DNA of 64,000 nt from positions 8,753 through 72,752 of the forward strand of contig JAKQQL010000192.1 of the NCBI GenBank assembly GCA_029564175.1. The letters are read 5' to 3'. The translations under genes and the position numbers were made by a program. The notes under the pieces are model-generated. The model had not been told where the DNA came from and made no database searches. It worked only from the letters and a program-made list of their open reading frames with translations. The stretch is from Candidatus Cloacimonadota bacterium. GTDB lineage: Bacteria; Cloacimonadota; Cloacimonadia; Cloacimonadales; WRIO01. Positions within the stretch are counted from its first letter, which is position 1; the number at the start of each line of letters is the position of its first letter. Shown here one piece after another: positions 50,050 to 52,686 of the stretch.

Positions 50050-51210
50050 TTATTCGATAAAATAGGTTTTAAGAGGAGGAAATCCATTAAATTCAACAGA
50101 ACAGTAACTTGAGGTATAGGCTCCGGTTGTAAACCAGTACAAACGATCTCCAATAGATAAACTCAAAGGTAATTCATATTTCGTATCTTCGTACATAATG
50201 TCTTGAGAATCACAGGTTGGCCCTGCAATCACAACCTCTTCCATTTCTCCCTTCTTTTCGGTATAAATAGGAAATTTGATTGATTCTTCAAGCGTTTCTA
50301 TTAAACCGTTAAATTTGCCCACGTCAGTATAAACCCAACGGTTTAAAGCGGTTCTGGATTTTCTGGAGACTAAAACTACTTCGCTGACAATCATCCCAGC
50401 TTCAGCAACCAGTGATCGACCTGGTTCCAGAATAATTTCAGGATGATCATCTCCAAAATCTTCTATAATATAACGGGTAATCTCTGAAGCATAAACCGAT
50501 AAATCATTGGTTCTTGCTACATAATTTGCAGGGAAACCGCCACCCATATTAATCATTTTCAATTTAATACCTTCTTCTTCTTCCAGCCATGTAAAGATAT
50601 ATTTTACTTTTGAAATCGCTGCATCCCACGCAGATATATCTCTTTGCTGTGATCCTACATGGAAAGAGATTCCATAAGGCTCAAGTCCCAATTTGCTGGC
50701 AAGAATGATCAGATCAGTCGCCAGGTCTGTCTGACAACCAAATTTACGGGATAAAGGCCAGTCAGCTGTTTCCATACCTTCGGTCAGAATTCTGACAAAA
50801 ATTCTTGAACCTGGTGCTGCTTTGGCTATATTTCTCAGGTCTGCTTCACTATCTGTCACATAGAGACGAACGCCTGCTTCATAAAATTCTCTGATATCTT
50901 TGGATTTTTTAATCGTGTTTCCGTAACTGATTCTATCGGGTGTGACACCCAATTCCAGTAAACGTCTTAATTCATAAACAGAGGCTACATCAAAGTTTGA
51001 GCCTAAATCTCTTAAAAGAGATAATACTTCGACTGCTGGATTTGCTTTTACTGCATAGTAAACTTTTGCAAAAGGGAAGTTCTCTTTTAATTCATAATAA
51101 TTGGATTTAATAATACTTAAGTTGCACACAATAAAAGGGGTTTCTTTAGTATCTGCAAAACTCTTAAATTTTTTCCAGTCTTCCGGAGAGTAGTAGTTAT
51201 CTTTGATCAT
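50050..51210 (-). CDS. Fold-type III PLP ornithine (or lysine/ornithine) decarboxylase
   Basis: YAVKAN (PLP Lys), FDVAS, WPLSRKFG, SFHVGSQ, GGGF, EPGR, GPTCDS, GAY; GGAGG RBS before the ATG at 51210. Confidence 0.92.
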   Translation of the reverse strand: MIKDNYYSPEDWKKFKSFADTKETPFIVCNLSIIKSNYYELKENFPFAKVYYAVKANPAVEVLSLLRDLGSNFDVASVYELRRLLELGVTPDRISYGNTIKKSKDIREFYEAGVRLYVTDSEADLRNIAKAAPGSRIFVRILTEGMETADWPLSRKFGCQTDLATDLIILASKLGLEPYGISFHVGSQQRDISAWDAAISKVKYIFTWLEEEEGIKLKMINMGGGFPANYVARTNDLSVYASEITRYIIEDFGDDHPEIILEPGRSLVAEAGMIVSEVVLVSRKSRTALNRWVYTDVGKFNGLIETLEESIKFPIYTEKKGEMEEVVIAGPTCDSQDIMYEDTKYELPLSLSIGDRLYWFTTGAYTSSYCSVEFNGFPPLKTYFIE

Positions 51211-51304
51211 TGTATCCTCCAATCTTTAGGAGGTTTTTAATAGTCATAGCTAAACATCTGTCAGGGGGGTGTACCTGAGTATTCCATCTTCTGATGTCAA
51301 ACAT
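51197..51304 (-). CDS. Putative regulatory leader peptide (35 aa) of the decarboxylase
   Basis: AAGGAGG RBS 5 nt before the ATG; MFDIRRWNTQVHPPDRCLAMTIKNLLKIGGYNDQR*; overlaps the first 14 nt of the decarboxylase CDS. Confidence 0.7.
   Translation of the reverse strand: MFDIRRWNTQVHPPDRCLAMTIKNLLKIGGYNDQR
51216..51233 (-). promoter_or_regulatory. Anti-Shine-Dalgarno hairpin over the decarboxylase RBS
   Basis: mRNA CCUCC-UAAAGAUU-GGAGG pairs the whole GGAGG SD. Confidence 0.6.
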
Positions 51305-51532
51305 TTTAGCCTCCTTTTCTTAAATATTTATGTGTTACGCATAATTAATCCCCAAATTATAGCAAGTATTTTTTTAAAATATTTATAAAAGACATTATTG
51401 CAATTATTTATAAAACGAATTTCTAGCTTGTATCTACCAGATAATCAGAAAAAAAACAAACATTTCTTACAAAAAGAGAAAATCAAATAAAGTAAAAAAA
51501 AACTTATTATAATTAATATAAATAATAGTTTT

Positions 51533-51576
51533 GATAAGGAAAGGATAAGGAAAGGATAAGGAAGGAATAAGAAAAG
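51533..51576. repeat. Short purine-rich tandem repeat
   Basis: GATAAGGAAAG twice exact plus two degenerate 11-nt copies. Confidence 0.7.
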
Positions 51577-51603: not shown

Positions 51604-52500
51604 CTAAGGTAAACGATTAATCAATCTGACAATCTGTTCAAGACTGAGTCCTGTTAAGATCAAAAATAGTCCAATACCTTGCCATACAGAAAAACTTTCT
51701 TTTAGGATAATGACTGCTAAAAAGGAGGCAAAGACCGGTTTTAGTAAAAAAAACATTGAAGATAATGAAGCATCAATTTTTTGTAATCCTTTTGAATAGA
51801 GTATATATGCAAAACCCGTAACAAAGAGACCAAGGTAAAGAAGAGCACTTATATTTTTAATATTAGGACTGAAACTCAAATCTACTTTAAGTAGTAATCC
51901 AACAATTAATAAAACGATTGCTCCAACGAAGAAAGAGATACAATTAAAAACAACTGCTCCGTATTTATGAATATTTTTTTTTGCAAGAACTGTAAACAAA
52001 GCAAACGAGACCGATGCCATCATGCTAAAGATAATGCCCAGTGAAACACTTTTAGCCGGAGTATAGTCCAAACCCTGATTGCCTGCTACAACCATAATCA
52101 TGCCAATTATTCCTGCAATAATTCCGATTAGCCGATATTTGCCGATTTTTTCTTCTAAAATAAAAAAAGCCAGCAAACTGACAAAAATGGAATTTGAACT
52201 GATTAAAATCGCAGCAATAAGGGCTTTCCCATAAAAAATAGCCAGTTGGAGTAAATACATACTGACTGTAATATTGATGATGCCAGGTAAAGCCATAGAA
52301 AGTATATCTTTTTTGTTTAAAGAGATTGTATTTTTTTTGAGTTGAAATATCGTAGGAACTAATAAAATCAGACTTCCGATTAAAAATCTATATGCAGTTA
52401 CTGCAAGTGGACTAATATCGGCGCCAATCATTTTGCCGGTAAATTCAAGAGTGGAAAAGAAAAATATAGCCAGAATACAAAATATATAAGCGATTTGCAT
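51604..52500 (-). CDS. EamA/DMT family transporter
   Basis: 10 TM, duplicated EamA repeats (FILEEK, IILKE); GGAG RBS before the ATG at 52500. Confidence 0.88.
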   Translation of the reverse strand: MQIAYIFCILAIFFFSTLEFTGKMIGADISPLAVTAYRFLIGSLILLVPTIFQLKKNTISLNKKDILSMALPGIINITVSMYLLQLAIFYGKALIAAILISSNSIFVSLLAFFILEEKIGKYRLIGIIAGIIGMIMVVAGNQGLDYTPAKSVSLGIIFSMMASVSFALFTVLAKKNIHKYGAVVFNCISFFVGAIVLLIVGLLLKVDLSFSPNIKNISALLYLGLFVTGFAYILYSKGLQKIDASLSSMFFLLKPVFASFLAVIILKESFSVWQGIGLFLILTGLSLEQIVRLINRLP

Positions 52501-52686
52501 TAAAAACTCCTTTTTATTCTCTTCAAATAGAAATGAAAAATAAGTCAAGAGAAAAGAATATTAGCTTGAAAAAATGGATTATTAAAGCATTTAAAAAAAA
52601 AGCGGTAAAACATGAATGTCATCTTGACAAAGTATCTGATTTATTATTTTTGACTAAGTAATAACGATATTCTTATTGGAGGAAAA

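What the first reader, a model, noticed from the sequence alone, without database searches (positions are those of the whole stretch)
51197..51316. Candidate new polyamine/ornithine-sensing leader-peptide attenuator controlling ornithine decarboxylase
Seen: AAGGAGG SD, 5 nt, then ATG opening MFDIRRWNTQVHPPDRCLAMTIKNLLKIGGYNDQR*. The ORF runs through a CCUCC/GGAGG hairpin that sequesters the decarboxylase SD and stops 14 nt inside that CDS (decarboxylase in the +1 frame). Nested helices GGCUAA/UUAGCU, ACAUC/GAUGU and UCAGG/CCUGA are possible. Known: the E. coli speF leader SpeFL senses ornithine through an HIRRxxH motif; di-proline motifs stall ribosomes (RAPP-like arrest peptides, EF-P dependence, the polyamine-sensitive PPW uORF of eukaryotic AZIN1). 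This peptide has both IRR and HPP, but precedes a fold-type III enzyme unrelated to SpeF. Inference: ligand-dependent stalling at HPPD leaves the anti-SD hairpin closed (OFF), while read-through melts it and allows coupled re-initiation (ON).
Basis: partly seen in the sequence, partly recalled or inferred. Interest (0 to 1): 0.85.

Follow-up and report, generated by a model that had tools for sequence, protein, structure and literature searches.

The report
Diproline leader peptide controlling ornithine decarboxylase
A short upstream reading frame with an unchanging proline-proline pause site sits in front of the ornithine decarboxylase gene of eleven uncultured Cloacimonadota species and probably decides, by whether ribosomes get past that pause, if a hairpin hiding the enzyme's ribosome-binding site is opened.

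Summary
On the minus strand an AAGGAGG site, 5 nt and an ATG open a 35-codon uORF (51304-51197). It runs through a CCUCC/GGAGG hairpin that hides the decarboxylase Shine-Dalgarno (SD) site, and it stops 14 nt inside that gene.

The uORF is not a chance ORF. A homologous one precedes the same alanine-racemase-fold (AR-fold) ornithine decarboxylase (ODC) clade in 11 of 14 Cloacimonadales genomes that carry the clade.
- Pro-Pro lies at codons 13-14 in all 11.
- Codon 12 is only His or Gln, and codon 15 only Asp or Asn. These are published strong contexts for EF-P-dependent stalling.
- Third codon positions vary freely, so the constraint is on the peptide.
- The anti-SD CCUCC is kept in three different reading frames, so that constraint is on the RNA.

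Most likely mechanism: ribosomes that pass PP[D/N] unwind the hairpin and terminate at or near the ODC start, which turns the gene on. Ribosomes paused at PP sit 30-41 nt short of the hairpin and leave it closed.

The signal is untested; polyamines, EF-P activity and prolyl-tRNA are the candidates. The SpeFL-like "IRR" is kept in only 2 of 11 peptides and the HIRRXXH motif is absent. I rate this a new variant of a known kind, leader-peptide translational attenuation. I found no published description.

The parts
51362..51366 (-). Conserved CTTGC motif, a candidate -35-like promoter element for the leader transcript. The transcription start site is unknown.
   Evidence: CTTGC lies 57-65 nt upstream of the uORF ATG in 11 of 11 uORF-bearing loci, after an A/T-rich tract. 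The sigma-70 consensus scan found no promoter here, so this rests on conservation only.
51310..51316 (-). Shine-Dalgarno site (AAGGAGG) of the uORF
   Evidence: Read directly. A GGAGG or AGGAG lies 4-7 nt before the uORF ATG in 11 of 11 relatives.
51197..51304 (-). Leader ORF (uORF): 35 codons plus a TAA stop
   Evidence: Homologous uORFs are present in 11 of the 14 Cloacimonadales genomes that carry this ODC clade. Nucleotide identity by codon position (first/second/third) within the window's own family is 0.76/0.81/0.33.
51260..51271 (-). His12-Pro13-Pro14-Asp15, the proposed EF-P-sensitive pause site
   Evidence: Pro13 and Pro14 are invariant in the aligned peptides. Codon 12 is only H or Q and codon 15 only D or N. 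The proline third positions vary. Published pause hierarchies are cited.
51229..51233 (-). Anti-SD (CCUCC) inside the uORF
   Evidence: locates it. An exact CCUCC lies between PP and the ODC SD in 10 of 11 loci, and CUCC in L003. It is read in three different frames, so the constraint is on the RNA.
51216..51220 (-). Shine-Dalgarno site (GGAGG) of the decarboxylase, paired with the anti-SD
   Evidence: Predicted probability of being unpaired is 0.00 in the window and 0.00-0.21 across all 11. Local hairpins have -8.8 to -16.4 kcal/mol.
50050..51210 (-). AR-fold ornithine (or ornithine/lysine) decarboxylase, 386 aa
   Evidence: PF02784 and PF00278. The nearest solved structures are lysine/ornithine decarboxylases (5gjm, E 1.5e-54) followed by eukaryotic ODCs. 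No NCBIfam model is passed at its cut-off.

Best explanation
This is a cis-acting leader peptide that gates translation of a biosynthetic ornithine decarboxylase.

1. The leader mRNA starts about 30 nt before the uORF (inferred).
2. Ribosomes load on the strong uORF SD and, after 12 residues, reach [H/Q]-P-P-[D/N]. This is a diprolyl context of the kind that stalls ribosomes unless EF-P helps (inferred from E. coli data).
3. Downstream, a CCUCC inside the uORF pairs with the decarboxylase GGAGG. In most species an outer helix also covers the decarboxylase AUG (shown as conserved complementarity and predicted pairing).
4. A ribosome held at PP has its front edge about 15-25 nt short of that hairpin, so the decarboxylase stays off.
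5. A ribosome that gets through unwinds the hairpin and terminates inside, at, or 13-28 nt before the decarboxylase start. That frees the SD for a new or re-initiating ribosome, so the gene is on.

Decarboxylase output therefore follows the flux through the diproline pause. I think the physiological modulator is most likely the polyamine pool, acting as negative feedback as at the eukaryotic AZIN1 PPW uORF. EF-P activity is the alternative. This last step is conjecture.
For: Conservation of the uORF:
- It is present in 11 of the 14 Cloacimonadales genomes with the close ODC clade (at least 70% identity), spanning two GTDB families.
- M1, P13 and P14 are the only invariant columns in the aligned peptides.
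- Pro codons differ at the third position: CCC CCT, CCA CCC, CCT CCA, CCA CCG, CCG CCA, CCG CCT. Arg5 changes AGA to CGC.
- Identity by codon position (first/second/third) is 0.76/0.81/0.33 within the window's family. For codons 11-15 between clades it is 0.62/0.80/0.22.

The flanking residues fit published strong stalling contexts:
- PPD and PPN were found only among pausing motifs (PMC4140641, passage).
- His and Gln at -1 fall in the strong-stalling cluster for XPPP (PMC4176338, abstract and section 14).

Structure and geometry:
- The anti-SD is kept as nucleotides in different frames (read as NLL, SSS, PP, TLL).
- The ODC SD is predicted paired in 11 of 11 (unpaired probability 0.00-0.21). 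This is below the shuffle mean in 11 of 11.
- RNAalifold recovers the anti-SD:SD helix and an outer AUCA:UGAU helix over the ODC AUG.
- A modelled ribosome at PP leaves the SD closed (0.00-0.25). Masking the anti-SD opens it (0.25-0.75) in 11 of 11.
- In all 11 the uORF runs through the anti-SD and ends at +14, +4 (ATGA), 0, -13, -16 or -27/-28 relative to the ODC ATG.

Context:
- The motif pattern is unique in the 4.6-Mb genome.
- Flanking genes differ between loci and the upstream neighbour is often divergent. The uORF plus ODC therefore travels as a unit with its own CTTGC motif.
- The genome encodes EF-P with a Lys-type loop and spermidine synthase, so ODC feeds polyamine synthesis.
Against: - There is no experiment. 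Translation of the uORF, the transcription start and the pause itself are all inferred.
- The stall hierarchies come from E. coli, not from this phylum.
- EF-P is present, so the pause may be short in vivo.
- I know of no evidence that polyamines modulate bacterial EF-P or Pro-Pro bond formation, and no search returned any.
- RNA support is conservation of complementarity, not covariation. Only 1 of 10 alifold pairs has a double change.
- Shuffle controls are modest for single sequences: 0 to 13 of 50 mononucleotide shuffles are at least as closed. The whole-leader fold has z -1.59.
- In 5 of the 7 leaders of the second family the full-length MFE pairs the anti-SD with the uORF's own SD instead, so the real ensemble is more complex than one hairpin.
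- Four close-clade loci (L004, L012, L013, metagenome L128) have no uORF, so the element is dispensable.
- Residues 2-11 differ between the two families, so no shared ligand pocket is evident.
Confidence: 0.6

Rival explanations
1. Proline-supply sensor, like the Salmonella mgtP and mgtL leader ORFs. Ribosomes wait at the two Pro codons when charged tRNA-Pro is scarce, the hairpin stays closed, and ornithine is spared for proline synthesis rather than putrescine.
For: The invariant element is two Pro codons in a short leader ORF. mgtP is a 17-codon ORF with three consecutive Pro codons that responds to proline-charged tRNA-Pro (PMC3641672, passages). The stall position and the downstream consequences would be the same as in the main model.
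Against: There are only two Pro codons. All four Pro codons are used across species, so no single isoacceptor is targeted. The neighbours are restricted to H/Q and D/N, which is expected for peptide-bond-level stalling and is not needed for tRNA starvation. Ornithine-to-proline genes were not examined here.
Confidence: 0.13
2. Substrate (ornithine or arginine) sensing by the nascent peptide, in the manner of SpeFL, with the stall switching the decarboxylase on.
For: The regulated gene is an ornithine decarboxylase. Within the window's own family residues 4-10 (xRRW-x-x-Q) are kept at the amino-acid level with synonymous changes. SpeFL shows that a nascent peptide can trap ornithine (10.1101/604074, passages).
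Against: HIRRXXH is absent. IRR occurs in 2 of 11 peptides. SpeFL arrests at its stop codon and acts through Rho on an AAT-fold speF. Here the conserved site is internal and 30-41 nt short of the hairpin. A modelled stalled ribosome does not free the SD (0.00-0.25). By reading the sequences, I saw no GGAGG-like segment between the stall site and the anti-SD that could act as an ermC-type competitor.
Confidence: 0.07
3. Constitutive coupling ORF or independent small protein. The uORF only serves to open the hairpin, or it encodes a peptide that acts elsewhere, and the diproline has no regulatory role.
For: uORFs that merely unfold a sequestered ribosome-binding site are known (PMC8092293, abstract and section headings). 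Four relatives manage without the uORF.
Against: The only invariant residues besides Met1 are the two prolines, at a fixed codon position in all 11, flanked only by strong-stall residues. The C-terminal half is not conserved as peptide and varies in length from 28 to 35 aa, which argues against a folded or trans-acting product.
Confidence: 0.08

Closest known systems
Salmonella mgtP and mgtL proline-codon leader ORFs (mgtCBR and mgtA leaders)
   Same: A short leader ORF with an SD, whose conserved proline codons make ribosome progress conditional. Ribosome position decides which mRNA structure forms. mgtL also has a link to EF-P: section heading 3.1 of PMC6460261 states that efp deletion raises mgtA mRNA in a manner dependent on the mgtL proline codons. 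mgtP details come from PMC3641672 passages.
   Different: Those are transcription attenuators in which the stall turns the gene on, and they control Mg2+ transporters in Enterobacteria. Here no terminator follows the hairpin, the predicted target is SD sequestration, the stall is predicted to keep the gene off, and the gene is ODC in Cloacimonadota. There is no sequence similarity.
Eukaryotic AZIN1 upstream conserved coding region with C-terminal PPW
   Same: A uORF in a polyamine-synthesis mRNA whose conserved element is Pro-Pro followed by a strong-stall residue. The stall represses the main ORF. Polyamines promote the stall by interfering with the EF-P homologue eIF5A (review PMC11550727, passage).
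   Different: The eukaryotic system uses a scanning and queuing mechanism and a near-cognate start, with no SD or hairpin. A polyamine effect here is conjecture. Any resemblance would be convergent, not homologous.
SpeFL (orf34) leader of speF-potE in gamma-proteobacteria
   Same: A leader peptide of about 34 aa in front of an ornithine decarboxylase. Regulation works through ribosome arrest.
   Different: SpeFL has an HIRRXXH ornithine pocket at residues 10-16 and a Phe-rich effector domain. It arrests at the stop codon by blocking the release factor, and it acts by Rho antitermination on an AAT-fold enzyme (10.1101/604074, passages). None of these features is found here.
odc1 motif of alpha-proteobacteria
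   Same: A conserved 5' leader of an ODC gene with a sequestered ribosome-binding site and a conserved short uORF (PMC8632094, passages).
   Different: The odc1 uORF has 11 codons and starts at a UUG 2 nt before the main UUG start. The structured RNA with a pseudoknot lies upstream of it. Its peptide logo is in a figure I could not see. No Rfam family matched the window leader or two related leaders.
CadC polyproline and EF-P control of the lysine decarboxylase operon cadBA
   Same: EF-P-dependent proline stalling sets the expression of a basic-amino-acid decarboxylase that makes a polyamine (review PMC12856214, passages).
   Different: There the prolines are in a trans-acting membrane regulator, not in a cis-acting leader peptide.

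Membership tests
SpeFL leader peptides | HIRRXXH ornithine-recognition motif (residues 10-16) | tested here: not met
   The window peptide has D-I-R-R-W-N-T, with no His on either side. IRR occurs in 2 of 11 peptides and YRR in 1 of 11.
SpeFL leader peptides | Arrest at the stop codon, Rho-dependent antitermination, upstream of AAT-fold speF-potE | tested here: not met
   The conserved site is internal (codons 12-15). The uORF stop position varies from +14 to -28. The downstream enzyme is AR-fold. Rho involvement cannot be tested here.
Proline-codon leader-ORF attenuators (mgtP/mgtL type) | A short SD-preceded leader ORF with conserved consecutive Pro codons overlapping alternative mRNA structures | tested here: met
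   An SD and ATG are present in 11 of 11. PP is at codons 13-14 in 11 of 11. The uORF overlaps the anti-SD hairpin in 11 of 11.
Proline-codon leader-ORF attenuators (mgtP/mgtL type) | Control of transcription elongation through a terminator or Rho site | tested here: not met
   No terminator-like site lies on the coding strand. The single hit is the same hairpin read on the opposite strand.
EF-P-dependent XPPX stalling motifs | Diprolyl with strong-context neighbours (-1: H, Q, R and others; +1: W, N, D, G, P) | tested here: met
   HPPD in 3 of 11, QPPD in 1 of 11, QPPN in 7 of 11.
EF-P-dependent XPPX stalling motifs | Measured ribosome pause that is relieved by EF-P | not testable with these tools
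   This needs toeprinting or profiling. Only the presence of an efp gene in the genome was shown.
Leader-peptide translational attenuation by SD sequestration (erm/cat type; named from my own recall) | The downstream SD is paired with a segment inside or next to the leader ORF | tested here: met
   Unpaired probability of the ODC SD is 0.00-0.21 in 11 of 11. Its commonest predicted partner is the CUCC inside the uORF in at least 7 of 11. In the rest the pairing is split with an alternative fold.
Leader-peptide translational attenuation by SD sequestration (erm/cat type; named from my own recall) | The stalled ribosome itself frees the SD (stall = on) | tested here: not met
   The stall site is 30-41 nt before the anti-SD. 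Modelled stalling leaves SD accessibility at 0.00-0.25.
Rfam RNA families (including any ODC or speF leader in release 15) | A covariance-model match at the gathering score | tested here: not met
   For the window leader the best sub-threshold hits are unrelated families far below gathering. Among 7 related and proteobacterial loci the only hit is RNase P elsewhere in L006.

The most novel reading that the evidence does not exclude
This would be a bacterial counterpart of the eukaryotic PPW uORF. Free polyamines would slow Pro-Pro-Asp/Asn bond formation, or counteract EF-P, on this leader peptide. The ribosome itself would then serve as the polyamine sensor that feedback-represses ornithine decarboxylase. 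That would be the same logic evolved independently in bacteria and eukaryotes, and it would imply that EF-P-dependent translation in bacteria is tuned by polyamines.
Probability: 0.3. Interest if true: 0.8.

Novelty: new variant of a known kind. Interest (0 to 1): 0.62.

Why it matters
Known bacterial control of ornithine decarboxylase by nascent peptides is limited to SpeFL in gamma-proteobacteria, and the alpha-proteobacterial odc1 motif remains unexplained. This element is a third, unrelated solution.

It uses the simplest ribosome-stalling signal known, a diproline in its strongest context. It wires that signal so that getting through the pause, not the pause itself, switches the gene on.

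It also mirrors the Pro-Pro-Trp uORF that makes antizyme-inhibitor translation sensitive to polyamines in animals and fungi. If polyamines act here too, this small cassette (about 130 nt) would be a direct assay for an open question: does the polyamine pool modulate EF-P-dependent peptide-bond formation in bacteria? The cassette can be tested in vitro and in E. coli reporters.

Even if the signal is only EF-P activity or prolyl-tRNA, it adds a translational, stall-equals-off design to the small set of proline-based leader switches.

Tried and rejected
1. A wider class of PP-uORFs before the same ODC clade in Proteobacteria.
- Pseudomonas leaders contain a frame ending '...FLIDL-x-x-P-W-[S/P]-stop' 190-290 nt upstream (19 loci). 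The first proline is P, F, C or A. The start codon is not fixed. The block and the about 40 nt after it are conserved at the nucleotide level with little synonymous variation. I do not count it as the same thing.
- 'GRYAHI-x-PPE' occurs in only 3 Marinobacter loci, and a fourth shares the nucleotides in a shifted frame.
- The beta/gamma-proteobacterial 'ENPSANV' frame is one reading of a nucleotide block across the ODC start, with variable stops.
- Most of the 142 proteobacterial and metagenomic loci scanned had none of these.

2. 'QPPD' upstream of three Cloacimonadaceae ODCs (L118, L120, L121). It lies in an alternative frame of the preceding protein-coding gene, so it is a false positive.

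3. A second genomic short ORF with PPN (contig C66). It has no recognisable downstream gene and the surrounding sequence looks like the antisense strand of a coding region.

4. An ermC-like switch in which the stall frees the SD. This is not supported by constrained folding.

5. A +1 frameshift at CCC-CCU fusing the uORF to ODC. By reading the sequence, the +1 frame hits a stop before the hairpin. The slippery codon pair is present in only 1 of 11 loci.

6. Covariation. RNAalifold gives essentially none, which is expected for an SD helix.

7. Sequencing runs.
- Only assembled contigs were available.
- One metatranscriptome holds two 151-nt pieces inside the ODC gene.
- Three libraries of uncertain RNA status hold pieces of a roughly 5% diverged relative reaching 51310-51328. 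These have three changes in uORF codons 20-21 and none in codons 1-15.
- This shows neither transcription start nor expression. Stretches without cover mean nothing.

8. EF-P modification genes. Deoxyhypusine synthase was not found. EpmA was not found above its cut-off. The EarP search had an uninformative control.

9. The dinucleotide-shuffle script timed out. I reran it with mononucleotide shuffles.

10. Literature. I found no description of this element in searches, nor in the two recent proline and EF-P reviews (passages only). The peptide logo of the odc1 motif is a figure I could not see.
Full report
**What is there.** Everything lies on the minus strand. AAGGAGG (51316-51310), five bases and ATG (51304) open a 35-codon ORF that ends with TAA at 51199-51197. 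Codons 12-15 are His-Pro-Pro-Asp (51271-51260). Further on, the ORF contains CCUCC (51233-51229). This pairs with GGAGG (51220-51216), the Shine-Dalgarno (SD) site that lies 5 nt before the ATG at 51210 of a 386-aa protein.

That protein has the two Pfam domains of alanine-racemase-fold (AR-fold) Orn/Arg/DAP decarboxylases. Its nearest solved relatives are bacterial lysine/ornithine decarboxylases (5gjm, E 1.5e-54), followed by eukaryotic ornithine decarboxylases (ODCs). No NCBIfam equivalog is passed at its cut-off. The uORF overlaps the decarboxylase by 14 nt, with the decarboxylase in the +1 frame.

**Organism and pathway.** Near-identical loci in public genomes carry titles of Candidatus Cloacimonadota or Cloacimonadales MAGs. 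The window's genome (4.6 Mb, 35% G+C) has one EF-P gene with a Lys-type PGKG loop and a spermidine synthase. Nothing passes the cut-offs for nspC or the AR-fold speA. The decarboxylase is therefore the plausible entry to putrescine and spermidine synthesis.

**Is the uORF real?** I searched all 203 genomes held for the order. Of these, 98 have an ODC at E <= 1e-100. Fourteen carry the close clade (70-100% identity to the window's enzyme).
- Eleven of the 14 have a homologous uORF: L001-L003, L005-L011 and L111. They span two GTDB families and four genera.
- Three lack it (L004, L012, L013), as does one metagenome contig in which the ODC follows another gene directly (L128).
- The other 84 genomes carry a 56-63% identical ODC. 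I examined 27 of those loci and none has the uORF.

In all 11 uORF-bearing species:
- the uORF starts with ATG, 4-7 nt after GGAGG or AGGAG;
- Pro-Pro sits at codons 13-14;
- codon 12 is His (3 species) or Gln (8 species);
- codon 15 is Asp (4 species) or Asn (7 species).

In the peptide alignment the only invariant columns are Met1, Pro13 and Pro14. Conservation has the periodicity of coding sequence.
- Identity at codon positions 1/2/3 is 0.76/0.81/0.33 within the window's family. For codons 11-15 between the families it is 0.62/0.80/0.22.
- Six different Pro-Pro codon pairs are used, and Arg5 switches from AGA to CGC.

By contrast the anti-SD is conserved as nucleotides while being read in three different frames (AAC-CUC-CUA, UCC-UCC, CCU-CCU, ACC-CUC-CUC). 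The peptide downstream of codon 15 is not conserved, and total length varies from 28 to 35 aa.

Further support for a dedicated, cis-acting cassette:
- CCTCC occurs about 4 times per 10 kb of strand in this window (51 matches on both strands of 64 kb, as expected by chance). An anti-SD at the right place in every lineage is therefore not a composition effect.
- Genome-wide, ATG-N30-CAN-CCN-CCN-RAY open for 15 codons occurs once, and that hit is this site. Of 104 short ORFs behind a full GGAGG, only 2 contain PP[DNWEG].
- The flanking genes differ among the loci and are often on the other strand.
- A CTTGC motif sits 57-65 nt before the uORF ATG in 11 of 11.

**Why the diproline matters.** Published E. 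coli work places this motif among the strongest EF-P-dependent pauses.
- PPD and PPN were found only in the pausing set (PMC4140641, passage).
- At position -1, His promotes stalling (abstract). HPPP and QPPP cluster with the strong stallers, while Cys and Thr suppress stalling. At XPP/Y motifs the stall comes after the last proline (PMC4176338, abstract and section 14).

The two positions that vary here therefore vary only within the strong sets. This is what selection for pause strength would produce. Transfer of these hierarchies to Cloacimonadota ribosomes is an assumption.

**RNA structure.**
- In every one of the 11 leaders the local minimum-free-energy fold pairs the anti-SD with the ODC SD (-8.8 to -16.4 kcal/mol). 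In about 8 of 11 an outer helix also pairs the ODC AUG. In the window's full-leader fold UAUU pairs with AAUG.
- The predicted probability that the ODC SD is unpaired is 0.00-0.21. Mononucleotide shuffles of the intervening sequence give means of 0.26-0.48. The observed value is below the shuffle mean in 11 of 11. For single sequences, however, 0 to 13 of 50 shuffles are at least as closed.
- There is essentially no covariation, which is expected when one strand is an SD.
- In 5 of the 7 leaders of the second family the full-length MFE pairs the anti-SD with the uORF's own SD, while the ODC SD is held by an alternative hairpin. The ensemble is therefore more complicated than a single stem.
- No Rfam family matches.
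- No terminator follows on the coding strand. The one terminator-like hit is the same palindromic hairpin on the opposite strand.

**Mechanism.** The P-site proline codon lies 30-41 nt upstream of the anti-SD. A ribosome covers roughly 12-15 nt ahead of its P site (a figure also used in PMC3641672). A paused ribosome therefore cannot touch the hairpin.

Folding with a 30-nt footprint fixed at Pro14 leaves SD accessibility at 0.00-0.25. Masking 9 nt at the anti-SD raises it to 0.25-0.75 in 11 of 11.

The uORF always runs through the anti-SD. It ends inside the ODC gene (+14), on an ATGA overlap (+4), directly abutting the ATG (0), or 13-28 nt before it, in the hairpin loop. For the -27/-28 type I counted from the sequences: a terminating ribosome would hold the anti-SD inside its footprint while the SD lies beyond its front edge.

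The best reading is therefore a pause-gated coupling device. Passage through PP[D/N] switches ODC on, and arrest at PP leaves it off.

What modulates the pause is not shown. For a biosynthetic ODC, negative feedback by polyamines is the attractive option. It mirrors the AZIN1 uORF, where polyamines impair eIF5A-assisted synthesis of PPW (PMC11550727, passage). EF-P activity and prolyl-tRNA supply (as for mgtP; PMC3641672) would act at the same step.

**Comparison with known systems.**
- It is not a SpeFL. The HIRRXXH motif, the Phe-rich effector domain, arrest at the stop codon, Rho dependence and the AAT-fold target are all missing.
- It is not the alpha-proteobacterial odc1 motif, which has an 11-codon UUG uORF starting 2 nt before the main start, plus an upstream pseudoknotted RNA.
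- It works most like the proline-codon leader ORFs of the Salmonella mgtA and mgtCBR leaders. It is also a mirror image of the erm/cat/SecM-type switches (named from my own recall), where the stall opens the SD.
- The logic of a uORF opening a sequestered ribosome-binding site is also known (PMC8092293, abstract).
- EF-P control of another polyamine-forming decarboxylase, through polyproline in CadC, is known (PMC12856214, passage).

I found no paper describing a diproline leader peptide before a bacterial AR-fold ODC. Two recent reviews of proline translation do not mention one in the passages I read. Supplements were closed, and subscription-only papers are not in the library.

**Leads that did not hold.** The ODC clade is 69-75% identical to enzymes of Pseudomonas, Marinobacter, Nitrosomonas and others. 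I looked there for related uORFs. The Pseudomonas frame '...FLIDL-x-x-PW-x-stop', the Marinobacter frame '...YAHI-x-PPE...' and a beta/gamma-proteobacterial block over the ODC start are conserved mainly as nucleotides. They lack an invariant diproline or a fixed start, or they occur in few loci. The Cloacimonadota element therefore stands as a lineage-specific invention.

**Expression data.** Only assembled contigs of public runs were available. They show pieces of the ODC gene in one metatranscriptome. They also show pieces of the leader of a roughly 5% diverged relative in three libraries of uncertain RNA status. In that relative the three differences inside the uORF fall in codons 20-21 and none falls in codons 1-15. 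This agrees with the conservation pattern but is a very small sample.

**Verdict.** The element is real and conserved, and it is very likely a translated cis-regulatory leader peptide (about 0.9). The pause-gated hairpin mechanism is the best-supported model (about 0.6).

Noticed in passing
window 50050-51210 (-); loci L041-L110: The window's ODC is 69-75% identical to ODCs of Pseudomonas, Marinobacter, Nitrosomonas and other Proteobacteria. It is only 56-63% identical to the ODC of most other Cloacimonadales (84 genomes). This suggests horizontal transfer of the clade between phyla. No tree was built.
   Followed up: partly
L046, L054-L056, L060, L062-L065, L067, L068, L070, L072, L073, L079, L087, L133, L148, L173; 190-290 nt upstream of ODC: Pseudomonas-type ODC leaders share a strongly conserved block. 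One frame of it ends '...FLIDL-x-x-P-W-[S/P]-stop', and it is followed by about 40 nearly invariant nucleotides. No Rfam family matches two of the loci (L064, L046). It may be an undescribed leader RNA or a tiny ORF.
   Followed up: partly
L082, L088, L094, L097-L104, L106, L107, L110; -60 to +10 around the ODC start: Beta- and gamma-proteobacterial ODC genes share a conserved nucleotide block spanning the start codon. It reads '...RIHQPMSDTAV' in the ODC frame and '...ENPSANV' in another frame. Stops in the alternative frame vary, so it looks like RNA-level conservation.
   Followed up: partly
window 51530-51575: A short tandem repeat (about 11-nt unit, three or so copies, GGAAAGGATAA-like on the plus strand) lies between the EamA-family transporter gene and the ODC leader (read directly).
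   Followed up: no
window 51604-52548 (-): An EamA/DMT-family transporter gene lies directly upstream on the same strand as the ODC leader. The corresponding neighbour in the related loci is a different ORF, mostly on the opposite strand, so the pairing looks incidental.
   Followed up: partly
window 51216-51233 (+): The anti-SD/SD hairpin scores as an intrinsic-terminator-like site on the opposite (+) strand because a T-run follows it there. No + strand gene ends nearby in the ORF list.
   Followed up: no
L006 3552-3943 (-): A bacterial RNase P class A RNA lies about 1 kb downstream of the ODC in one related genome. This is ordinary.
   Followed up: no
L006-L009, L011 leaders: In the second family the uORF's own SD is predicted to pair with the same CCUCC that can pair with the ODC SD. 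One anti-SD may therefore be shared between two ribosome-binding sites, possibly adding control of uORF initiation.
   Followed up: partly
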